From positions 23,439 through 87,438 of the forward strand of contig DJWJ01000026.1 in the NCBI GenBank assembly GCA_002440965.1: a stretch of DNA of 64,000 nucleotides, given 5' to 3'. The stretch's first letter is position 1; each line of letters starts with the position of its first letter. The position numbers were made by a program, and so were the translations under genes. This stretch comes from Candidatus Omnitrophica bacterium UBA6233. Lineage in GTDB: Bacteria; Omnitrophota; Gorgyraeia; Gygaellales; Profunditerraquicolaceae. The notes under the pieces are model-generated. The model searched no databases, was not told the origin of the DNA, and saw only the letters and a program-made list of their open reading frames with translations. This document shows positions 3,993 through 34,100 of this stretch, in pieces.

Positions 3993-4075
3993 AAACACCC
4001 CCTTTTTTTAAGTTAAAACTAAAAGTAAAAAGTTGAAATCCAAAACCCTTTCTCTCCTTCCCCCTCCGTAAAAAA

Positions 4076-6421: not shown

Positions 6422-6430
6422 TTGTCATTA
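6271..6430 (-). repeat. Leader cassette repeat, copy B; spans the upstream gene's stop, the start codon and the signal peptide of the 4076..6421 GH; contains GC-rich hairpin 6376-6398
   Basis: On the minus strand: TAATGACAAATGACAAAATCCAAAATTCAAAATAAATCCCTGCCTGTCCGGCAGGCAGGCAAATGTCAAATTTCCAAGGTCAAAACATTTGTTTTGACC…CATTCATATGCAGAAGAC. The stem is cctgcctg/caggcagg (8 bp, loop ccgga) and it encodes LPVRQAGK. Confidence 0.8.
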
Positions 6431-7276: not shown

Positions 7277-7280
7277 TTTT

Positions 7281-8322: not shown

Positions 8323-9631
8323 CTATATTCTCTTCTTGGCCATCTCGCGTTCTTTAACCTTCTGCACTTCTTGCGCCACCTGTTCCGGAGTTTTCTCGCC
8401 TATAATTATGGATTGAATCCCCTTATCAAAAGCTTCGATAACCGGAGAAAATTCCGATACGCCCCAAACATTCGGATGCGTAGCATTATCCATAGCCCTG
8501 GCGAAGCTCGCCGTAACATCCGGAACCAAATTCGAGCTCTCTTTATTTGCCGGCAGGTTATTGGTCGCCTCTGCCAAATAAACCTGTTGGGGAGCTTCAG
8601 TCAGCCAACGCAGGAATTTGACCGCCTCTTCTTTATTCCTGGAACGGCTATTGACCATAAAAGACGAACCTGCGCCTCCCCAGATAGCCATTGGATATTT
8701 GTTCGAAGCTCTCGGAGGAAGAAACGCCCCATATTCAAGATTAGGATTCATCCCTTTGTAAACATTTACACACCACGAGCCATTAAAAGCAAATACTGCT
8801 TTTTCATTGGCGAACAACTGCTCAGCGGTTTTATTTACCATAGTAACTATACCGCTAGCCAACAATCCCGAATCCTGCATATCTTTAAATAAAGACAAAA
8901 CTTTAACCCAATCCGGGTCAGTATAAGGAACCTGGCCTTTTATAGTAGCGATTACCTTGTCTTTACCCATAATATTAAACGCATAATTATTAGCCAGGCA
9001 ATCAATCATCCAAATCTCTCCCCATCCTGAAACTAACCCCTGCATATTGGCGGCTTTAATCTTCTTTCCGATATCAAGAAAATCCTGAAAGGCCTGCGGA
9101 GGCTGGTTGGGATTAAGCCCTAATTGTTTAAATAAAGACTTATTATAGACCATTTGAATGGTCATTATGTCAATAGGCGCTCCGTAAATACCCGGCTTAA
9201 TTCCATAACTATTGCCTTCGTTAAATTCGTTTACGGCTAAAGCCTTGGCAAAAAAACTATTCTTCCATCTAGCCTCATCTTCCAGCATATAAGGCGTAAG
9301 CTCCAAAACATAATCCGCTTTGATAAAAGAAGCGAAATCCCTTTTCTCGCCCAATATGCCAAAAATATCCGGCAGGTTTGCGCCTTGGGCCGCAGCGCGG
9401 ACTTTCTGCGAATAGGCGTCGGAAGGAGCGTAGAGTTCGAAATTTACTTTTATACCGGTCTTGGCTTCGTATTTTTTAGCCAGCTCATTAAAAGCGGGGC
9501 CGCGGTCAGTCATCCAATGCCATACCATCAGAGTGGTTACAGCCTTATTTTTTTCGGCAGGCGCGCAACCGATCAGGCAAAAGACGCAAGAAACAATTGC
9601 TAGCGATAATATTCTAAACCTAGAACTCCGC
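8323..9631 (-). CDS. ABC transporter extracellular solute-binding lipoprotein (sugar, family 1)
   Basis: ATG at 9631 is preceded by AGGAGG. Lipoprotein signal MRSSRFRILSLAIVSCVFCLIGCAPAEK, then an SBP_bac_1-like body (…MVWHWMTDRGPAFNELAKKYE…). Confidence 0.85.
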
Positions 9632-9692
9632 ATCTGTCCTCCTATAATATAGTCATTTCCGGCTATTTTCTTATCTAAAGGCGGAATATTAA

Positions 9693-9721
9693 AATTTAAC
9701 ATAAGTTACTGGAAGGGTCAA
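9693..9721 (-). promoter_or_regulatory. Candidate sigma70-type promoter (TTGACC-N17-TAAATT) upstream of the SBP/permease genes
   Basis: Read on the minus strand: TTGACC (9721..9716), 17 nt, TAAATT (9698..9693), in the 115-nt gap between the PilZ stop and the SBP start. Sequence match only. Confidence 0.25.
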
Positions 9722-9746: not shown

Positions 9747-10061
9747 TTAAACGGCTCTTAAAACCCTGGACATCCCCATAAAATCCGCTCTCTCCAAGCT
9801 TACCCCGATATTATACTCGCTAGGATTGACCATCCTTGACCAGGCAACTTCTCCCCGGGTATAGAATGGCTCGCCTTTGTCCGGAACATCCAGCCATATC
9901 TCTAGCGGGGTGCGAAGCCTTAATTCCTCCTTCGCCATAAATCCTATGCCCTTAGCGCTGATGTCCCTGGTCTCTCCGGAACCCTCCACACTTGCCCTCG
10001 GATCAATGAATCTTAAGGGGAACCTAGCCTGAAACCGTTCAAAGATTCTTCGGTCATCCAT
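9747..10061 (-). CDS. PilZ-domain c-di-GMP-binding protein
   Basis: 104 aa. It has an RxxxR motif (RRIFERFQARFPLRF) and a D/NxSxxG motif (DISAKGIGF). The SD-like GAGGGGG lies ~8 nt upstream of the ATG. It begins 40 nt after the giant ORF's stop. Confidence 0.8.
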   Translation of the reverse strand: MDDRRIFERFQARFPLRFIDPRASVEGSGETRDISAKGIGFMAKEELRLRTPLEIWLDVPDKGEPFYTRGEVAWSRMVNPSEYNIGVSLERADFMGMSRVLRAV

Positions 10062-10101
10062 CTTTTACCCCCTCTCTTTTAATAAGCGCCTGCGCCATTC
10101 T

Positions 10102-13100
10102 CTACGGCTTTATTATATTCTTATTCTGTTTTTTTTCAACTTTTACCTTATTATTTTTCCCTTCGGCCAGGTTTCTCCATAACTGCTTGACTACATAATA
10201 ACTCTTCCTGGGAATGCGTTTATTCAAGCCGTTCTCCGTCTCTTCGGACACTGCCACAATCCCAAACCATTCCTCATTCATATTTTTATTGTATTTAGCT
10301 CTTATATCATGGTAGTAACTTCCGTTGGACCAGTTCGATTCGGTATTATGAGCCTTCCACCCGTCGCTGTTATTACATTCCTGGGCGGATTCATTATGCT
10401 TCCACCATTCATCTGTCCATTCAAACATTATCCCGCCTAAACAATTGCCCATGCCTTCTTTACTGCCGGCTAAATTTTCATAAATCTGACGCCACTGCAT
10501 CTCCAGGAAATACGCCTGCATATTCTGGTCTTCTTTGTTTAAATAGGCGTCATACGCGTCAGCGCCAAACTCTGCCACCAGAATCGGCTTATCAAGATCG
10601 GCCTTTACAGATTTGAATAAATTCCCGAAGGCCTTACCACGATAAATCATACAGGCGATTAAGTCAACGTCTTTTGTTACGGCCGCAGCCAAAGCTAGAT
10701 TCGTAATTTCACAATTACCTAAGGCTACCGGATGGTTAGGGTCTATTTTATGAATCTCTTTGGCCACTTCATTGACAAAAGAATAGTAAATCCTGGCGCG
10801 CATCTCGATTTGTTTCGAAGGATTCGGTTCTTTGTCGATTCCGCTGGTGCACCAAGGCCTAAATTGTCCGGAGAAAGAACGGTTATTTTCATTACCCAAA
10901 ATCCACATTAAGACTCCCGGTTCATCCTTATACCGATTAACCATTTCTAAAACTTCCCTTTTGATTTTTTCCCGGAAATCCTTAGCATTATACGCGGAGC
11001 AAGGCCCATCCCAGAGCCCCAAATCGTGGCCTAAAATAGTGCGGATACCATAAAGCTTGAAGAAATCCCTGATTACCTGCTTAACTGCCTGCGGATTCTG
11101 CCCAACCGTATAAATTCTGCCTGTATTCAAGCCCATATCTTGCATCAATTTTCCGTCGGTAATCCAAGGCTTACCCGGGTCAGACCACCAGTCATAATCA
11201 TAGTTCTGACCGATAGGTATAGGATTATAACAAACACCTTTAACAATATATGGCTTACGTTCGACTATCAACTGGTGATAGCTGTCTTTGGACTTATTGA
11301 TATAAACCTCGGGCTGAGGAACAGGAGAAATCTGCATTATAGCCATCAAAATAAGGAAAGCGAATAAAACCAAACAAAGCTTTCCTATCTTCTTAACTAT
11401 CCATTTTAATGGACAAAACAAATAACCGGAGACAAGAGCGGCTACGCAAACCAACGGTTTCAACTTCAAGGTAAGATTTCGTAATGCCAGCTTCGCATAT
11501 TCCCAAACAAGAGAATAAGGACGTTCGAATATTCTGGCCTGGGCTGCGATTGCTTCCGGGTCGCTGGAGAATTTTTCGTGGAAGGAGATTTGCGCGACTA
11601 TGAATCTTATTTCTTGAGGAGAAAATCCTAATTTGGCGAGCAGCTGTTCAGTTTCTTTTTTTCGGGCTTTATTCCAGGTTTTATTGGTAGCGATAGGATA
11701 ATCCAATATCGCGGCGTGCTCATCTTCGGTTAAATCTTGGATCAATTTTGCTAATCCTGTTCTTCCTTGCGGAGGCGCCTTAAGTTTACCTGAATAAATA
11801 AGATACCTTACTGCCGCTATCCTGAATAAAGCATTACCAAATTCATTGAACCGCAAAGAAATTCCCCGATGATCATAATAATCAAATTCGGCCTCATAAC
11901 AATCGCGGGCGGTGATAGCGTGCCCGTTCTGCCTGGATAGATTAATAGCGAATAATTTGGCTGCTCTGTATAAAGCAGGCGCTCCCCGCTTGATTCCGCC
12001 CTTATACCTTTCTATCGCCATTTTAGCCAGCCCGGGCGTAGCATATTTAGGAAGAGTCGCTTTCCCTATCGGCATAAAAGCTGCGAATTCTAATTTATCC
12101 CGGCTACCCTGGCCATTCTTATATTCCAACCCATATTCCTGGGAAATCTTTCCTGTTTTCTCCACTAAAAACGCGATCTTTTTTTCGTAAGCCATACTAT
12201 GAAAAGTATCGGCATTTTCTATAATACAATCTTTTAAGGCTTCTAAAGCTTTCTTGATTTTTTTGTCTTTTATAATAGCCAAGGAATAAAAATCTAAACA
12301 GGCCATGAAGAAAATGGCCAAGTCTGTCTTGTGCATCTTTAACCGGTTGTGCAATATTAAACTCCATACTTTCTTTTCTTTTTCCAGAAACCGTATATTT
12401 GGATTACCGTTTTCCCATAGTTTATATTCGATTAATAAACTCTGAAAAAGGGAAGATTCTCTACTATCTAATTCAATACCAAAGAATTTGGCCGTCTTGC
12501 GCAAAAACTGGCTTTTGTTTTCTCTTGTGTTCAATACCGCTTCTAATGCAAATCCGGGCGTAGGATATTTATAGACTATCCCTTTACCAAAAGGAACAAA
12601 AGCAGCTATTTCAAGTTTATCTTTTTCGCCATTGCCGTTGTTATAATTTAAATTATACCTTTGAGACAGCCTGCTTACCTCTGCTATCAACAAGGTTGCC
12701 TTTTTTTCTCTACGCAACTGTTTAAAGAAATGCCTTTTTTGGTACAGGAAAATAACTAATCCCCTGACAGCTTTATGTGTAACAACATCGCTGATGATTG
12801 TATTATCAACTAGCTTAACCCAGATTATCCATTGCGCGGCAATGCCGCCTTTGACTTTATTTAACTTATAAGAATAAAATACAGCTGATAATTCCTTAAT
12901 TTGAGCGATAATACCGGCATCCAAATGCGATTTTTCCCACGCCTTGTATTCGTTAACGGCATTGGTAAAACGCGCGCGCAGGCTTTCGGTAATTCTTTTA
13001 GATAGCTTTATACCAAAAGCATTAGCCCTCATAAGCAGAAGCGGATATTTCTTCTTTATTTGTCCTTGATCATGCATAAGCGCCTTTTCCAGTTCTCTTT

Positions 13101-16100
13101 TCACAATGCCCAGGGTGGGATATTTAGGAAAAACACCGCAGCCCATAGGCGTTAAAGCCGCAAATTCCAGCTTATCTCTTTCGCCTAACGCGCCATTATT
13201 ACCATACCCTAGACCATACTCTTCAGATAATTTATCCGCTTTTATCATTAAAACTCTTGTCCTGTATTCATAAGACATTGACTGAATATTACCTTTCTCT
13301 TTTTCCACATAATCCTTCAATGCCCACAACGCCCTTTTAGTCTGCGCGTCTTTAATCAAAGTTAAACCCTGGATATCCAACCATACCGATATGTAGGCGA
13401 CCGCATCTTTTCCTTTCTTATCTAACCTGTTACTCCTTAATAGTTCCCATAGCTTCTTTTCTTTCGCGATCAGATCTGCATCCTTTTGGGCGCTTTCCCA
13501 GTTGTTGTATTTGACCAGTATTATCTTGTACAGAAACCGGCACCCCTCGGTCAACCTGATGTTGAATGTCTTGGCTGCCCTGTAAAGCATCTGATCCCGG
13601 GCTCCGGATATCCAACTCTCTATTGCTAATCCGGGAGTATGGTATCTTGCGACTTTACCATACAACATTGGAGGCAAAGCCGCGAATTCCAGCTTATCTC
13701 TTTCTCCATTGCCGCAAGCATAATCCAAGCCGTAGCGCTTCGCTAACTCTTCGGCTTCCTTGGCCAAAAATCTTGCCTTGCCCTTGCGGCCTAATTTCAG
13801 GAAATATTCCTTGTCCAGGGATAAGGAAAAAATCAGTCTTTCAACCGCTTTCCTGGTAAGATAGCTGGAAATGGCCAGCTGGCTAAACAGCTTCATCCAT
13901 ACTATCCAGGGATAAATCGGATTTTTTGCATGAAAGAATTCCGTAAAGTTATTGCGCCGGTAGATATCCCAAATCTTTTCGGCCTGGCAGCGTAAATCCA
14001 GGGCTTCATTATCCTTATTATTATGCCTATACTCATCCACAGCTTTTTGATAGGAAGGCGGATTGGGAATGGATTTATTTAATAAGAAAAACTTGCTGGT
14101 TGTCTTGCTTGACCTGATAACAAACATGCTGCTGAAAAATCCGATAAATTTCCTGTCATCGCTTATTTTTCTCCTGACAGCTCCTAATACAGCCCTGCCG
14201 AATCTACTTTCATAGCCTCTCTTGAGCACCGATTCTTCAACATACTGTGCAACTTCACGGGAAAAATCAGCATTCGAGAATATAACCAATAATGCTGTTG
14301 TTAAACGAGATGTACACTCTTTTTTGGATTTCTCGGATAGAATATCTAGAATTACTTTAAACACATCTTCTTTTTTAGTTATGGTATTACCCACCCTATT
14401 CGCTATCGGTTTTTGATATTTTTGTTGGCCCGCTATCAACCTTAACCTCTTCAAAGATTTTTCTTCAATCTGCCTGACTCTTTCTTTTGTCAGACATAAT
14501 AAATCGCCGATTTTTTCAAGGGTCATTCTTCCGTTATCGAAAGAGAACAAGCCGTAACGCAGTATCAACACTATCCTCTCATCATCCTCTAATTTTTCCA
14601 ACATAACGCCTACGGCTTCCTTCAATATTGCCCTGCGGGTATTCTCCTGAGGAGAAGCAAACGTATTTTGTTCGATGAAACTTCCCTGGCTATCTTCGCC
14701 TTCCGAGCTGATTGGAGCATCCAATGATACAGGGTCGCGAATCTCAAGTAGCTTTTTGATTTTTTCTACAGGCAAGCTCATCCGCTGAGCCAGTTCTTCA
14801 GGAGCAGGTTCTCTTCTATATTCCTGTACGAACTTCTGGGAAATCTTCTCTAATTTATATTTTTTCTCCAACATATAAACCGGCGCCCGTATCATATGAT
14901 TCTTCTCCGAAAGTGCTCGGGTAATTGCCTGGCGTGTCCACCAAGAAGCATAAGTGGAGAACTTATTGCCTTTCTTATAATCAAATTTTTCGATAGCCGG
15001 GAACAATCCTAATCTTCCGTAGCCGAATAAATCATCGAATGTCATCCCGCAGCCAGGGTATTTTTTGATAATATCACCCACCAGCCCAAGATTACACATT
15101 ACCAGGCAGCCAGTAATGGTTTTTGTCTCTTCGGGGGCCTTTACCGCGTGAAGAGCTTTAAATAACTCAACCTCTTCTTCTCTGCTCAGGACGTAACGGA
15201 AATTTTTAAATCTAAACTGGGCCAATATTCTCCTAGCTAAGCCTAAGCCATCCTCTTTAATATTCTTAAACAGGACTTTTGCTAACCTCTCTGCAGCCCT
15301 TACGTTTTCTTTTTTATTAATTAAATGCCCGTGCTCATGCTCAAACAGTTCTATTAAAATGGCCTCTTGGTTTGCTTGGATAAGTTTGACTATTAATTCA
15401 AGGGGAATGATAATCTGGGAATTATAAAGGCAGGCGGCTATGAATCTTTCTATGCTATCATACAAAAGTAAGCCCGGAGGGCCTTTTGACCTGACATCCG
15501 AATCAGCAAGAAATAAATAAACATTCTCTTTATTGAGCCAGCGGATTAACTGGGGAGTCAAAGCCAACAACGCCTTTTTATCCTGAGGTAAATCCTTATA
15601 GCGAACAAGACGATTCTCTTTCTGTGCCTTGGAGATGACTTTCTTCGTCTGCTTCTTGGCTTTTTTATCCATAGCGCCTTCTTCATAAATTCCCAACCCG
15701 CAGGCAGAGACATCGGGATCTTCTTCTAACAACTCTTCAATTTTTGTCGTTTCCCGTCCTGAAGCAAACCAGGCAATGCCCACAGGATTAGGCAACTGCA
15801 ACAGCGTAAGCCGCTTTTCTTTAAGCGCAGAAACAACGGCCCGGGTTGAAACGGACACGATTAAGAATGCTGAAAATATTGAAAGGAATAGCATCGCAGT
15901 AAAAAGATTGTTGTAAGAAACAAAGGCACATATAAATAAAGTTATCCCGGAGAAACTGATAATGAAAGGTATTAATGCGCGGCCACGATGATCCGTTAAC
16001 CGGTTCGGGCCAGCTTCCTGAAACGCGCGGCTAAAGGCGCTTTCCGGGCCTCTATTCAACGCTATATCTTTAATTCGCCGGGCCACTCCTTCGGTAAATC

Positions 16101-19100
16101 CTTCGTCGGATAAAACTAACCGCAATGCGCTGGCTAGCCTGCCAAAAACTACGCTATTAGCCTTTTGATTCAAAATATCCACAATCTTTCTCAATACGGC
16201 CTCTCTATCGGCTAGAACATTCTCCGGAATCTCAACAATAGGTTTATTTTCTTTAATGGAGGCCTTGAATATCCTTTTTGACTTCTTGATTGCCGCCTCC
16301 TCTATCTGCCTAATTCTTTCCTCGCTTAAACACAGAAAATTCCCTATTTCTTTACGCGTCTTTGTTTCGCCAGAAGCGCTATATAATCCGTAACGCAAAA
16401 CCAATATTACCCGCTGGTTATCACTTAACTGTGAGAGTAATGTCCTTGTATTTTCTTTTAATATATACCGGTTCGCATTTACTCTGGGAGAAACGAATTT
16501 GTTTTGTTCAATTAAATCTAATAGGCTGTCTTCCCCTGCACCAAATGGAGAATCCAGGGAAATGGGGTCACAAGTTATAATGAGATTTTTAATAGTCTCT
16601 TCGGAAAAATCGGTAATTTCGGCTAACTCTTCCTGCGTAGGATCTCTGCCGAATTCCTGGGTAAATTTCTCAGAAATTAAGCGTAATTTAGATTGCTTCT
16701 TCTGCATATACATCGACACCTGCATCTTATGGGATTCCTTCCTGGACGCTCGGGTAATCGACTGGTATATCCACCAACTGGCATAAGTTATAAACCTATA
16801 ACCTTTTTTATAGTCATATGTTTTAGTAGCCCGCAATAACCCGAGATATCCTTCGCTAACGAATTCTTTTGTTCCTCTCCCACATTTTTTAGCTGTATCA
16901 ATAATAAATCCTAAATTGCACCTTAGTAGGCAATCGAGAATATCTTTTCTTTCGGAAGAACTGATCCCGTTCTCCAGGGCTTTGAACAATTCGATTTCTT
17001 CCTCTTGATTCAAGAGATACCCGCCGCCACATTTCAATTCTTCCAATATTCTTTTAGCCAGATGCCAGCCGTCCTCTTTGATAACGCTCAATAACTCTCT
17101 TGCTAATTCCTCCCCTTCGCCTGTGTCTTCCCGGCCGCCCAGAAGATGCCTCTTCTCGTGTTCAAAGAGTCTTATTAAAAGACTCTCCTGGCCTGCTTGA
17201 ATAAGTTTTGCGATTAATTCAAAGGGGATATAAATGGCGGAGTCGTAAGCGCAGGCGAGTAAAAATCTATCTTTATTTTCATACCAAAGGAATCCCGGAG
17301 GACCTTTTGACATTATCTTAGATGCAGGGAGGACTAGCTGGATATTTTCTTGGTTTAACCAATTCAATAGTTGAGGAGTAAGGACCAATTCCTGTCTTTT
17401 ATCCTGCGGCAAATCCTGATAGCGGAAGATGCGATTCTCTCTTAAGGCCTTGAAGATGATTTTTTCTGTTTCCTTTACCCCCTCCGCGTCCATCGCGCCG
17501 TCGGAAGTATAAATTCCCAACCCGCAGGCAGAATGGTCAGAAGAATTATGGATATCATGATATTGTGTTAGCTGCAAAAGGAAGTTCTTAAATTTTGGAC
17601 TGAAATTGTCAGATAATCCCAATGCCCACCTTAACACAATATCAAAAATATATTCTTCTCTGGTATTCCCTAAAATTGTTTCGGCAGGAGGATTAATCAT
17701 AAAAGTAGCGTGGTCGCAAGTAAGGATGCGGCCGTCGACACTGATGAATAAAAATATTTTATCCGGGCGGCGATGAGAGAAAATATCATCCATACTCAAT
17801 GGTTCCGCTTCCGGCAAAGACTTTGCCCCACCCTGAGCGATAAGATGATTTATATGAAACATTCTTTCGCCCCATATTATATATCTTTCATATAAGCCGT
17901 ATTTTTTAAGAATACGGAACCGGTTTTCCGCACGAGATAACCTTATATTATATGCAGCTCGCAGCCTTCCTTCGCGCCACCTATAACTTTCCTCAATGGC
18001 CTTGATAACCTTTACCATATCTTTGTCTCTTTTTTTCGCCTCTTTTTCATGCCACTGGTCAAGGGAAAAAACTAACTCAACATTATCAGGAATTTTGCCT
18101 AAAAATTTGTCCATCTCTTCATGGTCTTCTGGGAAAGATAAACCATTGGTATCTATATGAACCTCGCCGATGTGCTTGCTGGCGGACCAAAGAATTTCCC
18201 AGAAATCAGCCGAAGGCTGGTTATCCGTATAATTTTTCTTTTTGTAGGCAAAAGGCTCTCCGCCGACAAAATACACACTGGGAAATCCATCTAACTGCCG
18301 GATTATCCTTTTAATCTGATCCATAGGCAAGTCTACGTTAGGATCTTTCTCAATAACATCCTTGGCAATGCAAAATCTACATCTATATGGGCAGCGATGC
18401 GTTATCATAATATTGATATTCGAGTCTAATTTCGGAAACTCCGTCTTTAGGAGATCGAATAAAATCGCTACTCTTTGAGGGGATTTATTTATCATCTGGG
18501 CGGCCTGCTTTCCAACATCGGCTAAGACGCCGGCAGTGAGTTTTTGGATATTCCGGTCTTCGGCTTTTAATGCCTGGATAGCCGCCCGCAGAGTTCCATC
18601 CGAAAGTTTAACTACCCATGGTTTATCTGTCTGGCTTAAAGATTTAACTATCAATCTATAAGTGCGACTGATTTTTACGAAGTCCATAAGATAGGTAGAA
18701 TAAGGGGATCGCGCGCTGTCTTCGATAAACTCAGACTTAGCGATAATATAGTAGATATTTTCTTGCCGGTTTGCAGGTTGCCATCCTAATTTTGCTAAAA
18801 CTTCTATTGCGTCTTTCCAGCGATAAAGAAATCCGCTTTTTAATACTCCGAAAAGAAATTCTTCCAAAGCCCTAAGAAAAGGCTCGACTGCAGATGGGCC
18901 GATTTTAATCAAAGTTTCTATTATGCAATTACAAACACTCCAATTTTCTTGTCCGAATCCAGAGGCGGCTTTAAGCTCATTCTCAACAACAAGGTCATTT
19001 AAGGCTTTAATAAGGCAAGGAATTATGGGTGGGCCGATTTTCACTAATGTGTCCATTGTAAGATGACGGAAATTCCAATCATCATCGTTTAATGCTCCAA

Positions 19101-25100: not shown

Positions 25101-28100
25101 GGGTTCCTCTCAATGCTTCAAAAACGCTTTCTTCCCACCCTTCACTTACAGAAATAAGGATATCCTCTTTTTTTAGGTCTTTTTTGAGAGCCTCTATTTC
25201 CTGAAAAGCTATTTCAACCCCGCTGTCGGCAAGGAATCTGCCAAAATTAATCTTTATAACTTCGTTAAATACGGCCTCATCTTCGGGCCTTCGTTTTACA
25301 TTAACTAATTTTAGTTCTACTTCCGGGACCAATTTTTTTAATCCCTTCGCAAAATTGGCCGCTTCTGCCGCATCACCGCATCTGCCAAAATGCCTGAAGA
25401 GAACTATTATCCTCCCTTTTATCCCTGACGAAGGCGGGCCGCAGATTCCATTAGGCTGGACATTTTGAGGCTTAAGGTCTTTAAGTGGAAGGGGAGAATT
25501 TTTATTCAAGGTGTAATTTTTTAAAAGAAGGGTATCGAGCGCTTCCTTTATCAAAACCCACATTTCCGCTTTTCGCGAGCCGATCTCTGCCAAATGCAAC
25601 TGATACACATCCTTAGTCAGCTTCTTTAATTCCAATAACTGTTTTACCTTTTCAGCGTTAAAAGATAATTCGAGTTCCTCGAAAGCCTTCTCCAGTTTTT
25701 CGGCAAGAATAAGCGCGGCGCGGGAATCATCGTCTTGCGGTATATTATTTAATGTCGCGGCGGCTAATCTAAACAGTTTTCTTTGTTCGCCGCGCGATAA
25801 TCTCCGGTTAAAATACTCTCCAAGCTCGCTTAGATAATCATTAACGTTAATATGCGCGGGCAACCGCCGCTTTTGGTGTTTCTTGGTTGCCGGTATGGCC
25901 ATCAAACTGCGGATAAGCGAACTGGTAATTACTTTCGAACAAGCGGCAGCCTTCATTATTGCCTCTATAAAGTCTTCATCCGCGCAGATAATAGAATCAG
26001 TGCCATAGCTCTCGCCATCCAGATGAGTGGACATCCAAAATACCGCCCTGAAATTATCCTCGGCCCTCTCCTTCCTCAAGGCGTCAATAAGCGCGTTCGA
26101 TTTCTGCAAAACAATATGTTCCAGCTGACAAAATTTTGCCTGTTCAACACAAACCTCTTGGCCTTTGTAAGGATATCTTTTGGAATCCCGCAGCAACTCT
26201 TCCACACTGGAATCTTTAACGCAGTATTCATCCCTGCCAAGCTTATTAATCCAGGCGGCAATATCTTTTATCCGGGCAATTTTAATTAATCTGTCCAACA
26301 TCAGGCTGTCTTCTCTAACGGCAATCTTGGATTTAAAAGTAAAACCTTGCAGGCTGTCCGCGTCTGCTACCACATCCTCATCCGAAATAATAGCGGCCGC
26401 CAGCAAATAGGCTATAGCCGGAGAAACCCTAAAATTGTATTTAAAATACCTCTGCGCAAGGATAGCGCAAGTGCAGGATACCGAATCTTTAATTTCAGAA
26501 TTTTTAGGCGCAGGAATATCGTTTAATTTAGGATGGTGGTCTATGATCGAGATTACCTCAAAAGCCCTGAGCTCTTCTCTTTCAACTCCGCTATAGTCAA
26601 ATGAGGCAAATTTTATTTTCCCTCTTGCTTCATCGGGCATCCGGGCAATCTTTTTGATCGGTTCTTCGATGTTTTGATAATAAATCATATCATTTTCTTT
26701 AATACCAACGTCCCCCAAAACATCCCTTGTCCCCTCATCTAAGCTATCATTCATTACCGGGAAATACTGAACCTTTTTTTCTTCCCCGGGGAGAATATTC
26801 TTAATTTTGGTAAAAAGATGCGCGCCCAAGAATGCCGAGATGCCGCCATCTTTTTCCTGAGTCCGATGCGGCAAGCAAATAACTATTTCTTCATTTATCT
26901 CTTCTCCCTTAGCAATCTTTTCCAAGTAGCCCGTGAGTTTCTGTAAGTTCTGCTCTTTTGAAAACTTTTGCAAATCGGAATCGAAATGCTCCGGAATAAT
27001 ACTTTTTTTGCTTAATAGTTCATTTTTATTTTTGCCTGAATCATCAGGATTTAAGGGTTTTAGGCCATTTATAAATTCATCCAAACCCTTGGCTATAGAG
27101 TTCTTGAATCTTTCAGCCGATTCCACAAAATCACGGTCATATTCAAGGAGCCGCTTTCCTTCCTGGACCTGGCTTAAGAAAATGGTTTTATTTTCTTCGC
27201 ATTTCTTATGCAGCTCCACAGGTTTGGCATATAATTTCAGGAATACTCCAAAATCATCTGCTCCCAAATCATTTTTAGCTGCCTGATAATACCCATACAC
27301 CTCTAAAAACATCAGGAATGACTGCCAACCGATTGCCGCAGACAAAAGATTAGGATAATCTTTAAGGATATTATAAACAGGCCCGCTGATGTAGATAGCC
27401 CCCCGCTTAAGAGAATGACGAATATAACAACGGGAACCGTTCTTGCCCTGCGCAAGAAAAGGATAGGCCTGGCCTGTTATCTCCAGAGCGACTATGTCGA
27501 GATTCCTTTCATCGAGGAACTTATTATAGGCTTCCTTAATCTCTTCCGGAGCCCATCCGTTTAAATACCCAAAGGCAGCCAAAGCGGAAATAATGCCCGG
27601 GGCAAGCTTTTTTATTTCCCGGATGGTTTTTTCAATACGGCTTCTCTCTTTAAACCTTCTGTCCTCACACCCCTTTTCGCTGGAGGAAAACTTAATATCC
27701 TTATCTCCCCACAATAAATACATACCTCTGCTTTTTCGAACCGACTCTTTTAAAATCTGTTCGGGTATCTCATCGACAGGCAAAAGCACTTTCTTTATCA
27801 GTCCTGCGACATCCGAGGAAAAGATATAGGTAAGGATAGATTTCATTTTAAAATAAAAATATTTCGGACGGACAGTCCCTTTTATCGCCGCTAAAAGGGA
27901 TTCATTGCTGGCCTCAACATAAAACTTCTTTTCTTTTTCTTCCCGCGATAAATTAAACTTAAGGGAATTTACGTCACTGATTTTTATAATCTTTATGTGC
28001 GACTTCCAGCGATTCAACAGAACATCCCGGTCAAAAGGCTCATTCTCCGTATCAATAGTTTTAACTGTTATATTCGCTACAGGAAGAACCCAGCTGATAA

Positions 28101-31100
28101 GCCTGAATAAACTTACTACCATAATATTGAGCAGAGGCCGTTCCTTAATATATTCTAATGTCTTTTTCAAAATTTTAAGTTGCTCGGTATTAACTGCGTA
28201 AGGGGCTCTTACATCCATTAAAGCCAAAGCAATACAATTGCTTTCCCAGGGCTTAAGCCCGGCCTCATCAAAAAGAGACAAAGGAAGGTTTCCCTCGGGG
28301 TGAATACTTCCATCAATCAATTCCCATTTTCTATATTCTCCTTTATACTTACCTATCCATATTACCGGATTAAATATTACGGGAAGCGAAATACTGGCTC
28401 TTATGGCTAAGTCTATGGGCATATCCGGGCAATTCTCTGCGTTTAGCTTCAAGAGCCTCTTAGTGAGGTAATCTACAGCTGTAACTGTCAGATTAAACGG
28501 GTAATTGGCTTCTTTAAGCTCACCGAAAGTGGGGATAAAACCAAACCTGTCTATTATAAGGCTTCTAATCCACTCTAATACGGCGTCTCCTTTAGATATT
28601 CCTCCGCGGGAAAGAAGATTCCAAGTGAAACCAATACTGCCAACGGGAGGGTTGGAGAATCCGGATGCGTCCGTATCGTATGCTTTTTCTTTGGCGGCCC
28701 TGGCATCATAACCAAGCATCAAGAATAAAGCGACAATTGCCCCTATTGACGTCGCTCCCAGATTAGTAAAACAATATCCTTCTTTTTCTATTGCCTCTAT
28801 AATTTGGTAATAACGTAAACCGTCGATGCCGCCTCCGGGAATTATACCGTAATCAATCAGCTTCTTGCTTTGCCGGTATTTTTCAATCTCCGGGATTACC
28901 TTTCGAATCTGCTCTTTTCTCCATTCTTTACATTCAATATCTGGTCCTTTGGTATCCGGCGATACTGCGGTTTTCTCCTTGTGTCTTTCCTTAAAATCGG
29001 AGATCTCGGCAGCCAGGCCGTGCCAAAAACAAAAGATGGCAAAGGCAAGCATAGGAATAAAGAAAAAAACTACCGTCAGGAATAAACAGGTGTTTTCACT
29101 TACGTTAGAACCCGGCCCCATGGGCCAACCGGCAGTTAGAATACCTGTTAAGAAAAAGGTTGTTAGAGATACAACAGGCAGGAATAAACGGAAAATGCGG
29201 CTGCGGATTCTCGCTAAAATACTGCCGGATTTACCGGCTGGCGGCTGGTTGCGCGCTTTATCCGGTTGAACGGAATTTTGTGTTTTGGAAGCGCTTTCGT
29301 TTTCCGGAAAAATAAGAATATTCAATTCGGTTTCTTTATCAAAGAAATACGCGCGTTTCATATCAAATACTACGTCTATCTCTGTGTCTTTCTTGGGCCG
29401 GCCTTTTGTAAAGACTGCCTTAAAATTAATGCCATCAACAGAAAGCCCAACCTCTGCCTTTGAACCTAACTCTTCAGTTATATCTACTTTTACATGCACC
29501 GCATTATATGGACTATATAATCCCTGAACCTGAACATTCTGGGCATATAGCTTATCGTATATATCATTTGGCCTTATGCCAAAAAAGATATCCTTATTAA
29601 CATAGCCGGATATTTGCTCCGCCATTGTATCGTCAATTTTTAGAATAAAATTTTCTCCTGCCTTAAAATAATACCCTTCATTTCGTAAAATCTTCCCTTC
29701 TATGAAATTCATCGATGGGGAACCGATAAAACCAGCGACAAATTTATTCTTCGGCTTATCATAAACATCCATAGGTTCCCCGATTTGCTGGATAGTGCCG
29801 TCTTTCATCACCATTATCCGCGTGCCCATAGTTAAAGCTTCAATTTGATCATGGGTAACGAAAATAAAGGTGGTCTCTTTGCCTAAACGCTGATGCAGCT
29901 TTTTCAGCTCGGTACGCATCTGGCCGCGCAGCTTAGCGTCTAAATTACTTAAGGGTTCATCAAAAAGAAAAACCAACGGTTTACGCACAATAGTACGACC
30001 GATAGCCACGCGCTGTCTCTCGCCGCCGGAAATATTACGAGGCTTCTTCTCAAGCAGTTCTACGATACCTAAAATCTGGGCTGCTTCCGTAACTTTAGCT
30101 TTAATCAATTCTTTCTTTACTTTTCTCAGCTTTAACCCAAAAGCCATATTCTCAAAAATTGTCATATGGGAATAGAGCGCATAATTTTGGAAAACCAGAG
30201 CAATGTTACGGTCTTTTGCCGGCGTGTCATTAACAAGATTGTTTCTTATATATATTTTCCCTTCGCTTATCTCTTCCAAACCAGCAATCATCCTTAGTGT
30301 AGTAGACTTCCCGCATCCTGACGGCCCGACTATAATAAAAAATTCTCCTTCATCAACCTCAAAATCTATGGATTTAACCGCATAATGCACCGGATCCTTG
30401 CTTCTGCCGGGATAAATTTTACTTAACTTAACGGCTCTCACGCTCTTATTCAAAGCTGAATCGCATTCTTTTACCCTATCGGCCTTTTGATTAGCTTCGG
30501 TTTCTGAATGCGCGAATAATCTGGTTTGGCTAAGTCTTTTTGCTTGATAAACTTTGATTGCTTTATAAATTTTATAGCCCAGATAAATCAGTAGCCCGGC
30601 AGATATAACCACTTTAGCTAAAACGGACAGTCCGCTTAAAAACGGCAAGCCGGCGAACAAGGATACATTGGCCGGAGAAACATTGGCATAACAATCCCGC
30701 ATTTTTTGGTACCGATCATTCAAGGAATTTTTCTTTGCGCCGTAAAATCTAAAAGACGGGGCCCTATCTTTAGAAAATATCCACTCCGGCAGTTCATCCT
30801 GCAGGATTTCTTCTTCCGGCCATAGCGGTATGCTCATCCAATCCATCCCGCTTATATCGATTGCGGCAAACAGCTTCCCTAATCTTCTCTGATGCGCCTG
30901 AGCAAAGAAACGGCCTCTCGCAGCCCAGGCGAGCGGAGCATCGGTTCCCTCTATTGCATGCGGACCCCTCTTACCAGTAAGGTAATCTAAACGTTTCCTG
31001 CTGTTTTTAAGCGGTATTCCTTCCAGAAGAGCATCCATCCATCCGCGAGTCTTTTCCTCGCTTCCCAGCTCTTTAGCGTAATCCAGAATATATTTTCCCA

Positions 31101-34100
31101 CGTATTCAATGGCTCGGTATCCTCTTTTGGCCAAGCTCATGAATTCCCCGAATTCTTTATAGGCGTATTCGTTATAATAAGGAGGCAATTCCAGGAACAA
31201 ATGATGCTCTTTAAGCCATGTCCTTATATTTTTATTCTCCAAGCCGGCGCTAAAAACCAACCTAAGCAGATTCAAAGTTTCCAGCCATTCCTCCTGCGGA
31301 TAGATGCCGATTTTTTCTAACTCTTTAAGCGCTTCATTAAAGGCGGGCCAGATTTCGTCTGAAGTAATATAGCGGTCAATGATTTTATGCACAAAATCAT
31401 CGTTATCAGGATAGTAGCAATGCAGTAATTCTTCGAGAAGCGTAAGAAAGATAACCGGGGGCGGGGCGCGGCTTAATACTGGATTCCATTGAATATATCC
31501 GTCGATAACGCAAGCCAGCCTTTCCAGGAGATGCTCTGAACTCAACCTTACATCCGGATTCTTGAGGATGCGGACAAATAAATCATTCGGTTGAGGATTA
31601 TTTTGCTGGAATTGGGCCATTGTTTTTAACGCCTCTGCTAAAGGTTCGACTAAGAATTGCGGCAAACTGCCTTTAAATTTCAGCGCGTTATTTTCTACAA
31701 ATAAACTGATCGTAGAGTCTTCATATTTATCCCCCTTATAACTTAAAGATTTATCAATCAGAAAACGCGAAGTATGGAAATTTGCAGATGGCGTTTTTGT
31801 TCCGCTGGATTTGCATAATATCACCTTGTTCCTGCCTGAACCTTTGGCCTGATAAAGCGCCTTATCCGCGCTATCTATTAACTTCTCAAAGGACATATCC
31901 GGTTTTAAACCAGCTACTCCTATGCTTACAGTGCACTTTAAACTCAACGCCTTGCCTTCATACGAGGCTACGAATTCATTCTTCTCGATTGCCTTTCTAA
32001 TATTTTCGGCAACTGTTTCACAAGCATCATTTTCCTTGGTATGCGGCAAAATTATCGCAATCTCCTCGCCGCCGTAACGGCAGACAATATCTCCGTCTCT
32101 GACCATTTTTCTTATCAATACCGCGATTTCCTTAAGAACAAAATCCCCGGTTAAATGGCCGAACTCATCGTTATATTTTTTGAAATAATCGATATCCAAA
32201 ATCAACAAAGACAAAGGATACTTATACCTTCGGGCATTCTTAATCTCTATGGGCAAATGTTCGTTGAAATACCCGCGGTTAAAAATGTTCGTCAGAAGAG
32301 GATCTATGGAAACCTTGCCCCTAAGCTTACGGTTCTCGGCTTTAAGAGTTTCGTTTTCCAGCAGGACTTTCCGGTATTCTTCGGAAGTAACAAGACAGCC
32401 CGGCTCTGAATACGCGTAATCTTTCAAATCGGAACCGCGTATGCCGCGCCTTACTCTATCGCTAATTTCTTCCAGCGACTTATGGTCTCCGACAGCAAAA
32501 GTCGGCGCGTTAGGAACTATCGCCTTATTCATCTCAACCAGCATCTGCGCCGCGCCAAATCCTATAAAGGAATTTATTCCGTATTCATCTTTCATCCGCC
32601 TCATAGCATCCGCCTGAAAAACCGGCCTCAAAAATCCTTTTTCCAATTCATCGCGGACATCACGGGCAGTTGTAATCACTCCCTGTGTCGCGGAAGAGGT
32701 AATTATAGGCACGCGGGGGCCACGACAAACAAACCCCTTTAACCAATCCCGCAGCTTATCCTCTGCGCCTATTCCGTAAAAACTGTTATGCACTGTCTTT
32801 CTTGCAGAATGCAAGAACCTAACTCTTCTAACTCCACTCTCTCTTGTAGTATTTATGAAAGACAGGATTTTTTCTTTTAAACTCTGCAGCTCTTCTTCCC
32901 GGAGGCGCGCCGCCAAGGTTAACAAAAACGGAGAGTTATCCGAAAGCATTTCTACTTTTCCGGGTATGAGTAGTTTTTCTATTTCCCTGCGGCTTACGCC
33001 TTGTATAAGAATCGTTGTATAATCCACATCTGTTCTTGCGCTGGTGTATTCTGTCAGGTTTCTGATATAACAAAGCCCCTGTTGTAACGATATGGCTCCG
33101 GATAAAACAAAAGATGTTATAACTCCTACGCTATATCCCTCAAAGAAACGGGGGGCAAAACTTTTTCCTGTTTTCTCGACAAAAACTTTATATGCCCCGA
33201 TTGAATATAAAAATCCCGCGAGGGCAAGGACTGAAAAGTTATTTTCGTCGGCGGCGAAACTATACAGCAATAATCTCTCGACAGGATATTTAGCTCCTAA
33301 AAACCGGGAGGCGCCGCGATACAACCTCTTGATAGCAGGATACTCATTATATAAGCCGCGGATGCCAGAGATATTCTGCTGGGTAACGGATTTCGTAGGC
33401 GGGAAGATACAGGCGATATCTTTAGCAGGATGAGTTAAACGGGAACAATCATTGTTTTTTAACCATCTAATATAACTGGAGTCCGGACTAAGGCCTGCCT
33501 CCGTGATATCTTCAATATAAGAAGATAATAAGATATTCCTTTCTTCTGCCAGTTCTAAGGTATAAGCGACATCTCTCAGATTCTGTTCGTTTTCAAATTC
33601 GGCATCAAATCTGCCAAAAATAAGATGGGATATCTCATGGAAAAACATCACCTGGGCAACGATATATTTTATATTCAGGTTGAAAATAGCATGGACTGTC
33701 TCGGGACAAATAAAGATCGCGGTTAGGCTTAGAGAGGAGACTTGCGCGGTATAAGGAGAATTTCTTTTGATCTTATCTACACCGATAATTTTAAGGATTA
33801 ATTCTTCCTGTCTTGTCCTGGATTTAACTGCTTCAATAAGCGCACCCCGGGCAGCTTCGGAGAAAACCTCTAACGTTTTATCTAGAAGGATACTTACATT
33901 TCTTGCTTCCGCTACCTTTTTAAAGTCTTTCTCTGCGGATACGATTATCTCTTTTTCCCCGGAAACGCCCTTCCTGCAGAAATCATCCGCTAAAGCGCAA
34001 CTGTCTTTTTGCATTTCCGAAGCCTGCCAATAATTACACTTTCTATCCTCCACAAGTATCATTCTACTCTTATACCGCACATAGCATCTTAACTGCTGCC

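What the first reader, a model, noticed from the sequence alone, without database searches (positions are those of the whole stretch)
9747..32334. A self-contained c-di-GMP circuit: an I-site-bearing GGDEF domain in the mega-protein and a PilZ receptor gene 40 nt downstream
The giant ORF contains a canonical GGDEF domain at aa ~10530-10700. It is preceded by a coiled-coil stalk, and its RxxD I-site and GGEE(I) A-site align exactly with PleD (RDGDIVCRYGGEEI). The very next gene, at 9747..10061, is a 104-aa single-domain PilZ protein with RxxxR and DxSxxG motifs. This pairs a cyclase with its receptor at the same locus. It implies the megaprotein both makes and is regulated by c-di-GMP, possibly coupling surface or prey contact to downstream transporter or motility functions.
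Basis: partly seen in the sequence, partly recalled or inferred. Interest (0 to 1): 0.7.

Follow-up and report, generated by a model that had tools for sequence, protein, structure and literature searches.

The report
Giant-gene c-di-GMP cyclase plus PilZ
A huge gene of an uncultured Omnitrophota bacterium carries an intact-looking domain for making the signal molecule c-di-GMP and is followed by a small c-di-GMP-binding PilZ gene; the pairing is real and the gene order is conserved, but a 2023 preprint already proposed the link and nobody has tested it.

Summary
The minus-strand ORF 10102..63921 (at least 17,939 aa, still open at the window edge) contains one GGDEF domain at aa 10543-10699. 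It keeps every catalytic and substrate-binding residue, an RxxD I-site five residues before GGEEI, and a short GCN4-like stalk. Forty nucleotides downstream lies a 104-aa PilZ gene with conserved RxxxR and DxSxxG motifs and a confident PilZ-barrel model.

The organism is Omnitrophota. Among related genomes, 48 of 55 informative PilZ loci sit directly behind a giant-like ORF, about 53 if one or two intervening genes are allowed. Of the 43 loci informative on both sides, 41 are followed by the same sugar ABC-importer genes.

"Self-contained circuit" is not shown. The window has no phosphodiesterase. The PilZ/giant gene order holds even though giants share almost no sequence. This GGDEF module was found only in close relatives and one other fragment. 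None of 48 other giants has a GGDEF in its last 3,300 aa or less.

West-Roberts et al. 2023 (bioRxiv) already stated that pilZ genes follow Omnitrophota giant genes and might interact with their GGDEF domains. New details here are a FabD-like domain in front of the cyclase and an embedded MalK-type ATPase. Interest is modest.

The parts
10102..63921 (-). Giant ORF, at least 17,939 aa, with the frame open up to 63999. It is a mosaic multi-domain membrane protein: ROK, APH, HMGL/HCS, VWA+AAA_5, NHL, FabD-like, GGDEF, MalK-like ATPase, patatin, alpha-amylase-like, HEAT, radical SAM, two sigma70 r2-r4 blocks and a C-terminal GH-like domain.
32446..33414 (-). Divergent FabD / malonyl-CoA:ACP transacylase-like domain (aa ~10170-10492; GYSVG, VHNSF) directly N-terminal of the cyclase stalk. 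It is a candidate input domain.
   Evidence: A profile of this region plus 8 homologous giant fragments hits MCAT structures at E 1e-36 to 1e-30 over their full length. It is 100% conserved against L090 over aa 10325-10492.
32317..32385 (-). Predicted stalk helix (aa 10513-10535) with GCN4-like heptads. It is the presumed dimerisation element of the cyclase.
   Evidence: AF2 helix at residues 34-56 of the modelled segment. HMMER aligns it to the GCN4 zipper of the GCN4-WspR fusion 3i5c. Foldseek hits 3i5c and 6ttr.
31825..32295 (-). GGDEF diguanylate-cyclase domain (aa 10543-10699).
32059..32100 (-). I-site R10608-D-G-D10611, five-residue spacer IVCRY, then A-site G10617-G-E-E-I10621.
29560..30375 (-). 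Embedded MalK/UgpC-type ABC ATPase domain with an OB/TOBE tail (aa 11183-11454). It lies in the same inter-membrane stretch as the GGDEF domain.
   Evidence: Pfam ABC_tran and OB_MalK. NCBIfam UgpC 409.7 bits. Walker A, ISGGE signature, Walker B and H-loop are intact. Closest relatives are stand-alone 367-aa Omnitrophota ATPases at 57-59% identity.
10112..10139 (-). Promoter-like site TTGAAA-16-TATAAT (11 of 12 matches) inside the last codons of the giant ORF, about 45 nt upstream of the PilZ ATG.
   Evidence: This is a consensus match only. It is retained in L010, which is too close a relative to be informative.
9747..10061 (-). Single-domain PilZ gene (104 aa). It is the presumed c-di-GMP receptor or adaptor.
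8323..9702 (-). Carbohydrate-type solute-binding protein (SBP_bac_1/8) of a CUT1 ABC importer.
6428..8153 (-). Two ABC permease genes (7281-8153 is UgpA/MalF-like; 6428-7318 is UgpE/MalG-like). The operon has no ATPase gene.
1574..6421 (-). Downstream genes: GH2_C-like 781 aa with TPR (4076-6421), a 386-aa protein with no Pfam hit (2838-3998), and GH2_C-like 440 aa (1574-2896). The last has a paralogous copy fused at the giant's C-terminus (aa 17515-17927).

Best explanation
This is an ordinary example of the Omnitrophota giant-gene locus: giant ORF, then pilZ, then an ATPase-less CUT1 sugar importer, then glycoside-hydrolase-like genes.

Shown:
- The giant protein contains one GGDEF module, built as a FabD-like domain, a short GCN4-like stalk and the GGDEF domain.
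- The module has a complete active site (GGEE, with Ile in place of the final Phe) and an RxxD inhibitory site.
- The next gene encodes a PilZ barrel whose two c-di-GMP-binding motifs are conserved across its family.
- This PilZ family almost always sits between a giant ORF and the importer operon.

Inferred:
- Two giant-protein copies pair through the stalk on the cytoplasmic side. The paired GGDEF domains make c-di-GMP from GTP, and product binding at the I-site caps output.
- The small PilZ binds c-di-GMP. As an adaptor protein it then changes the activity of a partner encoded at the locus, either the giant protein itself or the sugar-import machinery.
- The giant's own cyclase is a plausible local source of the signal. 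It need not be the only source, and PilZ's conserved partner is the locus as a whole rather than this particular GGDEF domain.
For: GGDEF domain:
- Pfam 153.7 bits.
- HMMER alignment to WspR keeps DIDYFKxxNDxxGHxxGD, RxxD+5+GGEE and KxxGRN.
- These positions are invariant in a 32-sequence alignment.
- The AF2 domain has pLDDT above 95. Foldseek matches c-di-GMP- or GTP-bound cyclase structures at rmsd 1.6-1.7 A: 3ign, PleD 1w25, DgcB.
- Aliphatic residues at motif position 5 occur in about 7% of the 120 closest homologs, and the one giant-derived homolog, P0048, also has RxxD+GGEEI.
- B. subtilis DgcP is listed with motif GGEEL (PMC5422440).
- dN/dS is 0.18 against L090, with all motif residues identical.

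PilZ:
- R5 and R9 are invariant; D33 and S35 are kept in at least 90% of 46 homologs; A36, G38 and G40 are invariant.
- AF2 pLDDT is 90.6. Foldseek top hits are c-di-GMP-bound PilZ domains of BcsA, MotI, VCA0042, YcgR and Alg44.

Synteny:
- L001/L002 and L005/L006 show the same gene order.
- 48 of 55 informative loci have a giant-like ORF directly upstream. Five more have one 1-3 kb further up.
- 41 of 43 loci informative on both sides have an SBP gene within 3 kb downstream.
- PilZ is 99% identical in L010, where the giant's C-terminus is only 86% identical.

Topology:
- GGDEF and the nucleotide-dependent MalK-like domain lie in the same stretch between transmembrane clusters.
- The weak hydrophobic segment at aa 10230 sits inside the globular FabD-like domain.

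The same hypothesis was published by West-Roberts et al..
Against: - There is no biochemical evidence for any step.
- The Phe-to-Ile change at the A-site is untested.
- Dimerisation of a protein of at least 17,939 aa is assumed, not shown.
- Membrane topology rests on a hydropathy heuristic. One unexplained hydrophobic segment (aa 11088-11106) lies between GGDEF and MalK.
- The window has no phosphodiesterase.
- The GGDEF module is rare. Only L090 (95% identical) and fragment P0048 share it, and none of 48 other giants has a GGDEF in the last 3,300 aa or less.
- Giants next to orthologous PilZ genes share almost no sequence with this one.
- A strong promoter-like site precedes PilZ, so the two genes need not be co-expressed.
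- PilZ paralogs, other GGDEF proteins and HD-GYP proteins exist elsewhere in Omnitrophota genomes.
Confidence: 0.55

Rival explanations
1. Incidental co-location. The giant is a fast-evolving mosaic that has picked up diverged copies of many resident genes, and the GGDEF domain is just one such cassette. The PilZ belongs functionally to the conserved giant/importer locus. It reads the cell-wide c-di-GMP pool made by other cyclases, so there is no dedicated cyclase-receptor pair.
For: - The embedded MalK-like domain is 57-59% identical to stand-alone 367-aa Omnitrophota ATPases.
- The sigma70 block is 48% identical to an rpoD gene.
- The C-terminal domain is a paralog of the downstream 440-aa gene.
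- A 3,720-aa stretch is replaced by an unrelated 1,961 aa in a relative that is 94.5% identical elsewhere.
- The PilZ gene order holds with giants that share no detectable similarity.
- No GGDEF occurs in the last 3,300 aa or less of 48 other giants.
- The GGDEF module is found in only two other sequences.
- PilZ has its own promoter-like site.
- Other c-di-GMP genes exist in the phylum.
Against: - The GGDEF domain is under purifying selection with every functional residue kept.
- The FabD-like/GGDEF/C-flank module, including GGEEI and RxxD, is conserved in a second lineage, P0048.
- West-Roberts et al. report GGDEF domains in many giant proteins.
- Only the C-terminal 3,300 aa or less of other giants could be inspected, whereas here the domain lies about 7,200 aa from the C-terminus.
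Confidence: 0.3
2. The GGDEF domain is enzymatically dead or weak and acts only as a c-di-GMP sensor through its RxxD I-site. The giant protein would then be a receiver of the signal, not a source.
For: - Position 5 of the A-site is Ile instead of the usual Phe.
- A single GGDEF domain in an enormous membrane protein may never meet a partner domain.
- From general knowledge, I-site-only GGDEF receptors are known, such as PelD and PopA.
Against: - All residues known to be needed for catalysis and GTP or metal binding are present, and they are invariant in the homolog alignment.
- From general knowledge, degenerate receptor GGDEFs normally lose GGEE.
- Aliphatic residues at position 5 recur in otherwise canonical homologs, and B. 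subtilis DgcP is listed with GGEEL.
- A dimerising stalk is present.
Confidence: 0.08
3. The PilZ protein does not bind c-di-GMP. It would be a structural adaptor like the non-binding PilZ proteins of Xanthomonas and Pseudomonas (PA2960 type), needed for assembly or secretion of the giant protein.
For: - Its position directly after giant genes is conserved irrespective of their GGDEF content.
- No solved structure is similar at sequence level.
Against: - RxxxR and DxSxxG are invariant or nearly invariant in 46 family members. From general knowledge, non-binding PilZ proteins lack these motifs.
- Structural neighbours are c-di-GMP-bound PilZ domains.
- The extra PilZ-like domain fused upstream in other loci also keeps both motifs.
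Confidence: 0.05

Closest known systems
Omnitrophota giant-gene loci ('Archaeovorin'-type giant proteins) with downstream pilZ and carbohydrate import genes (West-Roberts et al. 2023, bioRxiv 10.1101/2023.11.21.568195)
   Same: Same phylum. The gene order is the same: giant ORF, pilZ, solute-binding protein, two permeases, glycoside hydrolases. Domain types listed for those giants are present here: HEAT, radical SAM, AAA_5 and GGDEF. The same hypothesis, that PilZ could interact with the giants' GGDEF domains, is stated there.
   Different: This ORF is at least 17,939 aa, below that paper's cut-off of 30,000 aa. No SecA_DEAD domain was detected. The upstream type II secretion-like genes lie outside the window. 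That paper gives no residue-level analysis and does not mention the I-site, the FabD-like domain before the cyclase, or an embedded MalK-type ATPase.
I-site-regulated diguanylate cyclases with a helical stalk: WspR (P. aeruginosa), PleD and DgcB (C. crescentus)
   Same: About 40% identity over the GGDEF domain. The active-site and RxxD residues and their spacing are the same. A preceding helix aligns to the GCN4 zipper of an engineered WspR fusion.
   Different: The input is not a receiver domain but a FabD-like domain. The module is buried in a protein of at least 17,939 aa. The motif reads GGEEI rather than GGEEF.
Stand-alone PilZ adaptor proteins (own knowledge: MapZ/PA4608 acting on CheR1, HapZ acting on SagS; structural hits here: PA0012, B. 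subtilis MotI/DgrA)
   Same: A roughly 100-aa single PilZ barrel with a C-terminal helix and RxxxR plus DxSxxG motifs. It is expected to act by c-di-GMP-dependent protein-protein contact.
   Different: Only 9-21% sequence identity. The partner is unknown. The family is specific to Omnitrophota giant-gene loci. In many relatives it is fused to a second, divergent PilZ-like domain.
Local c-di-GMP control of a very large surface protein: the GcbC-LapD-LapG-LapA system of Pseudomonas fluorescens (PMC3032545, PMC3032553, PMC10211494; listed, content from own knowledge)
   Same: The concept is shared: a specific cyclase signals locally to a receptor that governs the fate of a giant protein.
   Different: The receptor there is a degenerate GGDEF-EAL protein, not PilZ. 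The cyclase there is a separate protein, not a domain of the giant. No LapD or LapG homologs are seen here.

Membership tests
GGDEF diguanylate cyclase (PF00990 / TIGR00254) | Profile match above the curated cut-off | tested here: met
   Pfam 153.7 bits against 23.8. TIGR00254 170.3 bits against 37.4.
GGDEF diguanylate cyclase (PF00990 / TIGR00254) | A-site GG[D/E]E: the two Gly and two acidic residues | tested here: met
   G10617-G-E-E10620. These columns are invariant in 32 homologs.
GGDEF diguanylate cyclase (PF00990 / TIGR00254) | Phe at the fifth position of the motif | tested here: inconclusive
   It is Ile here. GGEEI, GGEEL or GGEEM occur in 10 of the 120 closest homologs, including the giant-derived P0048. 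B. subtilis DgcP is listed with GGEEL. No activity data exist for Ile.
GGDEF diguanylate cyclase (PF00990 / TIGR00254) | Metal-, base- and phosphate-binding residues (DxDxFKxxNDxxGHxxGD; KxxGRN) | tested here: met
   LDIDYFKKYNDEFGHLTGD and YQAKGSGRNKV align residue for residue to WspR. They are invariant columns in alignment A2.
GGDEF diguanylate cyclase (PF00990 / TIGR00254) | RxxD inhibitory site five residues before the A-site (optional feature) | tested here: met
   RDGD+IVCRY+GGEEI aligns to WspR RSSD+LAARY+GGEEF. RxxD is present at 131 of 142 motif matches among homologs.
GGDEF diguanylate cyclase (PF00990 / TIGR00254) | GGDEF fold | tested here: met
   The AF2 domain has pLDDT above 95. 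Foldseek gives 3ign at E 1.4e-18, rmsd 1.6 A, and PleD 1w25 at rmsd 1.6 A.
GGDEF diguanylate cyclase (PF00990 / TIGR00254) | A means of homodimerisation, needed for catalysis | tested here: inconclusive
   A helix at aa 10513-10535 is predicted with pLDDT 65-72 and aligns to a GCN4 zipper. No oligomer modelling was possible.
GGDEF diguanylate cyclase (PF00990 / TIGR00254) | Synthesis of c-di-GMP from GTP | not testable with these tools
   Requires an enzyme assay.
PilZ c-di-GMP receptor (PF07238) | Profile match above the curated cut-off | tested here: met
   39.5 bits against 22.5, E 7.8e-10.
PilZ c-di-GMP receptor (PF07238) | RxxxR and [D/N]xSxxG binding motifs | tested here: met
   R4-R5-I-F-E-R9 and D33-I-S35-A-K-G38. 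In 46 homologs, R5, R9, A36, G38 and G40 are invariant, and D33 and S35 are kept in at least 90%.
PilZ c-di-GMP receptor (PF07238) | Six-stranded beta-barrel PilZ fold | tested here: met
   AF2 pLDDT 90.6. The top 45 Foldseek PDB hits are all PilZ domains, many with c-di-GMP bound.
PilZ c-di-GMP receptor (PF07238) | Binding of c-di-GMP | not testable with these tools
   Requires a binding assay.
Omnitrophota giant-gene locus (West-Roberts et al. 2023) | Omnitrophota origin | tested here: met
   An identical PilZ protein is named Candidatus Omnitrophota at NCBI. L010 is a 99%-identical Omnitrophota MAG.
Omnitrophota giant-gene locus (West-Roberts et al. 2023) | ORF longer than 30,000 aa (that paper's working cut-off) | tested here: not met
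   At least 17,939 aa within the window. The frame is still open at the window edge, so the true length is unknown.
Omnitrophota giant-gene locus (West-Roberts et al. 2023) | Many transmembrane segments | tested here: met
   About 50 hydropathy peaks in about 10 clusters. This is a heuristic only.
Omnitrophota giant-gene locus (West-Roberts et al. 2023) | Divergent SecA_DEAD domain (present in most but not all) | tested here: not met
   Not among Pfam hits at E <= 1e-3.
Omnitrophota giant-gene locus (West-Roberts et al. 2023) | Downstream pilZ, solute-binding protein, permeases and glycoside hydrolases | tested here: met
   The same order is seen in L001/L002 and in most of 80 loci.
Omnitrophota giant-gene locus (West-Roberts et al. 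2023) | Upstream type II/IV secretion-like gene cluster | not testable with these tools
   It would lie beyond the window edge.
CUT1-type ABC sugar importer | Solute-binding protein plus two MalF/MalG-type permeases | tested here: met
CUT1-type ABC sugar importer | MalK/UgpC-type ATPase gene in the operon | tested here: not met
   None in the window's operon. None within 10 kb on either side in 80 related loci. An intact MalK-like domain sits inside the giant ORF instead. Stand-alone 367-aa ATPases exist elsewhere in Omnitrophota genomes.

The most novel reading that the evidence does not exclude
The giant protein is a membrane-anchored cytoplasmic hub in which several steps are coupled. A FabD-like, acyl- or malonyl-CoA-type ligand-binding domain sets the activity of the adjacent cyclase through the stalk. 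The locally made c-di-GMP loads the PilZ adaptor. PilZ then gates the giant's own embedded MalK-type ATPase, which powers the ATPase-less sugar importer encoded just downstream. Uptake of prey-derived sugar would thus be tied to the metabolic state sensed by the giant protein.
Probability: 0.1. Interest if true: 0.65.

Novelty: new member of a known kind. Interest (0 to 1): 0.3.

Why it matters
Giant proteins of Omnitrophota are among the largest predicted proteins in biology, and their function is unknown. A cyclase domain and a small receptor that can each be expressed and assayed on their own are among the few experimentally tractable handles on these proteins in uncultured bacteria.

The value of this finding is limited because the link was already proposed, and because GGDEF and PilZ parts are individually commonplace. 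What this analysis adds:
- residue-level support that both parts are likely functional;
- numbers for the conserved gene order;
- evidence that PilZ is tied to the locus rather than to this particular cyclase;
- two untested leads, namely FabD-like domains placed before signalling outputs and a MalK-type ATPase embedded in the giant.

Tried and rejected
1. c-di-GMP riboswitch or any other Rfam family. None reached the gathering score in the window or in 7 related loci.
2. Sequence search of PilZ against solved structures found nothing. The fold search succeeded instead.
3. Looking for GGDEF in the giants upstream of 80 related PilZ genes. None was found, but only the last 3,300 aa or less were available.
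4. Finding more giants with this GGDEF module. The word-indexed protein search gave only P0048. Exhaustive HMMER with the N-flank gave 29 hits, of which only P0048 carries GGDEF. The metagenome scan gave only the near-identical L090.
5. The idea that the giant supplies the importer's missing ATPase. It is weakened because the closest relatives of the embedded domain are ordinary stand-alone 367-aa Omnitrophota ATPases. It is not excluded.
6. An internal translation start at Met10325, where P0048 begins to align. No convincing ribosome-binding site is present.
7. The N-flank as a repeated spacer within this giant. No internal copies were found.
8. Promoter conservation in L010. It is uninformative at 94% nucleotide identity.
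9. Supplementary tables of the two giant-protein preprints for GGDEF or PilZ counts. None are held.
Full report
OBSERVATION

The window holds a minus-strand ORF at 10102..63921, 17,939 aa counted from the first ATG. No in-frame stop lies between that ATG and the window edge.

Pfam finds a single GGDEF domain at aa 10543-10699, E 4.7e-45. NCBIfam TIGR00254 agrees. The quoted string RDGDIVCRYGGEEI is aa 10608-10621.

The next gene, 9747..10061, encodes a 104-aa protein that matches Pfam PilZ at 39.5 bits against a cut-off of 22.5. It starts exactly 40 nt after the giant's stop codon, behind a GAGAGGGGG ribosome-binding site. My own profiles find no second GGDEF or PilZ in the window.

WHAT THE GIANT ORF IS

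An identical PilZ protein and the closest relatives are all from Candidatus Omnitrophota.

The giant is a mosaic of enzyme-like and regulatory modules:
- ROK kinase, APH, HMGL/homocitrate-synthase-like
- VWA plus AAA_5, NHL
- a FabD-like domain, GGDEF, a MalK/UgpC-type ABC ATPase with its OB tail
- patatin, alpha-amylase-like, HEAT repeats, radical SAM
- two sigma-70 r2-r4 blocks
- a C-terminal domain that is a paralog of the downstream 440-aa gene

About 50 hydropathy peaks fall in some ten clusters. This matches published descriptions of Omnitrophota giants as membrane-anchored multi-enzyme proteins.

Several modules look like diverged copies of ordinary resident genes. The MalK-like domain is 57-59% identical to stand-alone 367-aa Omnitrophota ATPases. 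One sigma block is 48% identical to an rpoD gene.

The protein evolves by cassette exchange. In L090, which is 94.5% identical over aa 9331-14259, the 3,720 aa before that stretch are replaced by an unrelated 1,961 aa.

THE CYCLASE MODULE

HMMER aligns the domain to WspR at E 2e-36 and to PleD at E 5e-30. Every residue class needed for catalysis is present:
- LDIDYFKKYNDEFGHLTGD
- GGEE
- YQAKGSGRNKV

These positions are invariant in a 32-sequence alignment. RDGD sits five residues before GGEEI, exactly as RSSD does before GGEEF in WspR.

The AlphaFold model of the domain has pLDDT above 95. It superposes on nucleotide-bound cyclase structures at 1.6-1.7 A.

The only deviation is Ile for the final Phe. 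Aliphatic residues at that position occur in 10 of the 120 closest homologs. A paper on B. subtilis lists DgcP with GGEEL; that DgcP is an active cyclase is my own knowledge. I therefore consider activity likely but unproven.

A helix at aa 10513-10535 precedes the domain and aligns to the GCN4 zipper of an engineered WspR.

- A profile built with eight homologous giant fragments hits FabD structures at E 1e-36 over their full length.
- In one such fragment, P0171, the same domain is followed by a Ser/Thr kinase domain. That hints at an input role for this domain.

Against L090 the GGDEF domain has dN/dS 0.18 with all motif residues identical, and the FabD-like part is 100% conserved.

A more distant Omnitrophota fragment, P0048, shares the whole module (FabD-like part, GGDEF, C-flank) and also has RxxD plus GGEEI.

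THE PilZ PROTEIN

In 46 family members R5, R9, A36, G38 and G40 are invariant, and D33 and S35 are kept in at least 90%. The model has pLDDT 90.6. Its structural neighbours are c-di-GMP-bound PilZ domains of BcsA, MotI, VCA0042, YcgR, Alg44 and PA0012. Binding of c-di-GMP is therefore very likely.

CONSERVATION OF THE ARRANGEMENT

L001/L002 show a truncated giant followed by PilZ, SBP, two permeases, a GH2-like gene, a 383-aa gene and a 441-aa gene, as in the window. L005/L006 show a giant of at least 4,667 aa followed by PilZ and sugar genes.

A scan of species-representative genomes returned 80 loci.
- Of the 55 with at least 3 kb upstream, 48 have a same-strand ORF of at least 1,000 aa, or one open to the contig end, directly before the PilZ gene or genes.
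- Five of the seven exceptions have such an ORF 1-3 kb further up.
- Of 43 loci informative on both sides, 41 have the solute-binding-protein gene within 3 kb downstream.

More distant PilZ paralogs (52-55% identical) lie elsewhere, after a histidine kinase or in a four-gene PilZ cluster after rpoD.

In many loci the canonical PilZ is fused in frame to a second, divergent PilZ-like domain that also keeps both motifs. The window has the short single-domain form.

PilZ is far better conserved than the giant. In L010, PilZ is 99% identical and the giant's C-terminus is 86% identical.

IS IT A DEDICATED, SELF-CONTAINED CIRCUIT?

This part is not supported.
- The giants next to orthologous PilZ genes share almost nothing with this one.
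- None of them has a GGDEF domain in the available last 3,300 aa or less.
- This GGDEF module was found in only two other sequences despite three large searches.
- The window has no EAL or HD-GYP domain.
- Other cyclases, an HD-GYP-type protein and many PilZ genes occur in the phylum.
- An 11-of-12 match to a sigma-70 promoter lies about 45 nt before the PilZ start, and no terminator-like site separates the genes. PilZ may be transcribed both with and without the giant.
- No riboswitch is present.

PRIOR ART

West-Roberts et al. [quoted passage not shown] They also describe the downstream solute-binding proteins, transporters and glycosyl hydrolases. No other paper in the library links Omnitrophota giants to PilZ or GGDEF.

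MECHANISM

Best-supported reading (confidence about 0.55):
- Shown: an intact-looking, I-site-bearing cyclase module; an intact-looking PilZ receptor; and a conserved giant / PilZ / importer gene order.
- Inferred: stalk-mediated pairing of two giant molecules on the cytoplasmic face; synthesis of c-di-GMP with product feedback; and PilZ acting as a c-di-GMP-dependent adaptor on the giant or on the sugar-import machinery.

The cytoplasmic location is inferred for two reasons. GGDEF shares its inter-membrane stretch with the ATP-dependent MalK-like domain. The weak hydrophobic peak at aa 10230 lies inside the globular FabD-like domain.

The main rival (about 0.3) is that the cyclase is just one accreted cassette and PilZ reads the global c-di-GMP pool. 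Minor rivals are a receptor-only GGDEF domain and a non-binding PilZ.

VERDICT

The features are real, correctly read and conserved. It is a further example of a known arrangement, with an overstated "self-contained" claim. Interest is 0.3.

Noticed in passing
window 63922-63999 (-): The giant reading frame has no stop between the window edge and the first ATG at 63921. The gene may start outside the window, so 17,939 aa is a minimum.
   Followed up: yes
window 32446-33414 (-), giant aa ~10170-10492: A divergent FabD / malonyl-CoA:ACP transacylase-like domain (GYSVG, VHNSF) sits directly before the cyclase stalk. Homologous domains occur in other giant fragments, once followed by a Ser/Thr kinase domain (P0171). 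This suggests a recurring input domain placed before signalling outputs.
   Followed up: partly
window 29560-30375 (-), giant aa 11183-11454: An intact MalK/UgpC-type ABC ATPase domain is embedded in the giant, while the downstream CUT1 importer operon has no ATPase gene. None of 80 related loci has one within 10 kb. The closest relatives of the embedded domain are stand-alone 367-aa Omnitrophota ATPases (57-59% identical).
   Followed up: partly
window 10138-11379 (-), giant aa 17515-17927, compared with gene 1574-2896: The giant's C-terminal domain is a close paralog (E about 1e-174) of the GH2_C-like 440-aa gene encoded further down the same operon. It is 65.6% identical to the orthologous 441-aa gene of L001.
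   Followed up: partly
window ~14080-17550 (-), giant aa 15457-16613: A block of about 600 aa containing sigma-70 regions 2-4 is tandemly duplicated inside the giant (38-51% identity between copies). One copy is 48% identical to an rpoD gene of another Omnitrophota genome (L008).
   Followed up: partly
L090 compared with window giant aa 5611-9330: In a relative that is 94.5% identical over aa 9331-14259 and 91.6% over aa 5228-5610, the intervening 3,720 aa (TM clusters, VWA, AAA_5, NHL) are replaced by an unrelated 1,961 aa. This looks like cassette exchange within a giant gene between close relatives. The stretch aa 11455-11694 is also only 57% identical.
   Followed up: partly
L012 9575-10001, and the same position in L014, L016, L019, L022, L039, L045, L052, L073: In many related loci the roughly 400 nt between the giant's stop and the canonical PilZ encode, in the same frame and without a stop, a second divergent PilZ-like domain (RRxxxRW, D[IL][SNT]xxG, WVAWHK, YGLYF). 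This gives a di-PilZ protein of about 250 aa. The window has only the single-domain form.
   Followed up: partly
window 10112-10139 (-): A near-consensus sigma-70 promoter-like site (TTGAAA-16-TATAAT) lies inside the last codons of the giant ORF, just upstream of PilZ.
   Followed up: partly
P0048 aa ~480-611: The only other giant fragment sharing the GGDEF module has an MraZ/AbrB-like domain (PF02381) inserted right after the GGDEF domain. The window's giant lacks it.
   Followed up: no
L010 9880-9975 compared with window 10062-10140: In the 99%-PilZ-identical relative, a C-to-T change creates an earlier stop in the giant ORF. This lengthens the giant-PilZ spacer from 40 to 63 nt while keeping the promoter-like hexamers.
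   Followed up: no
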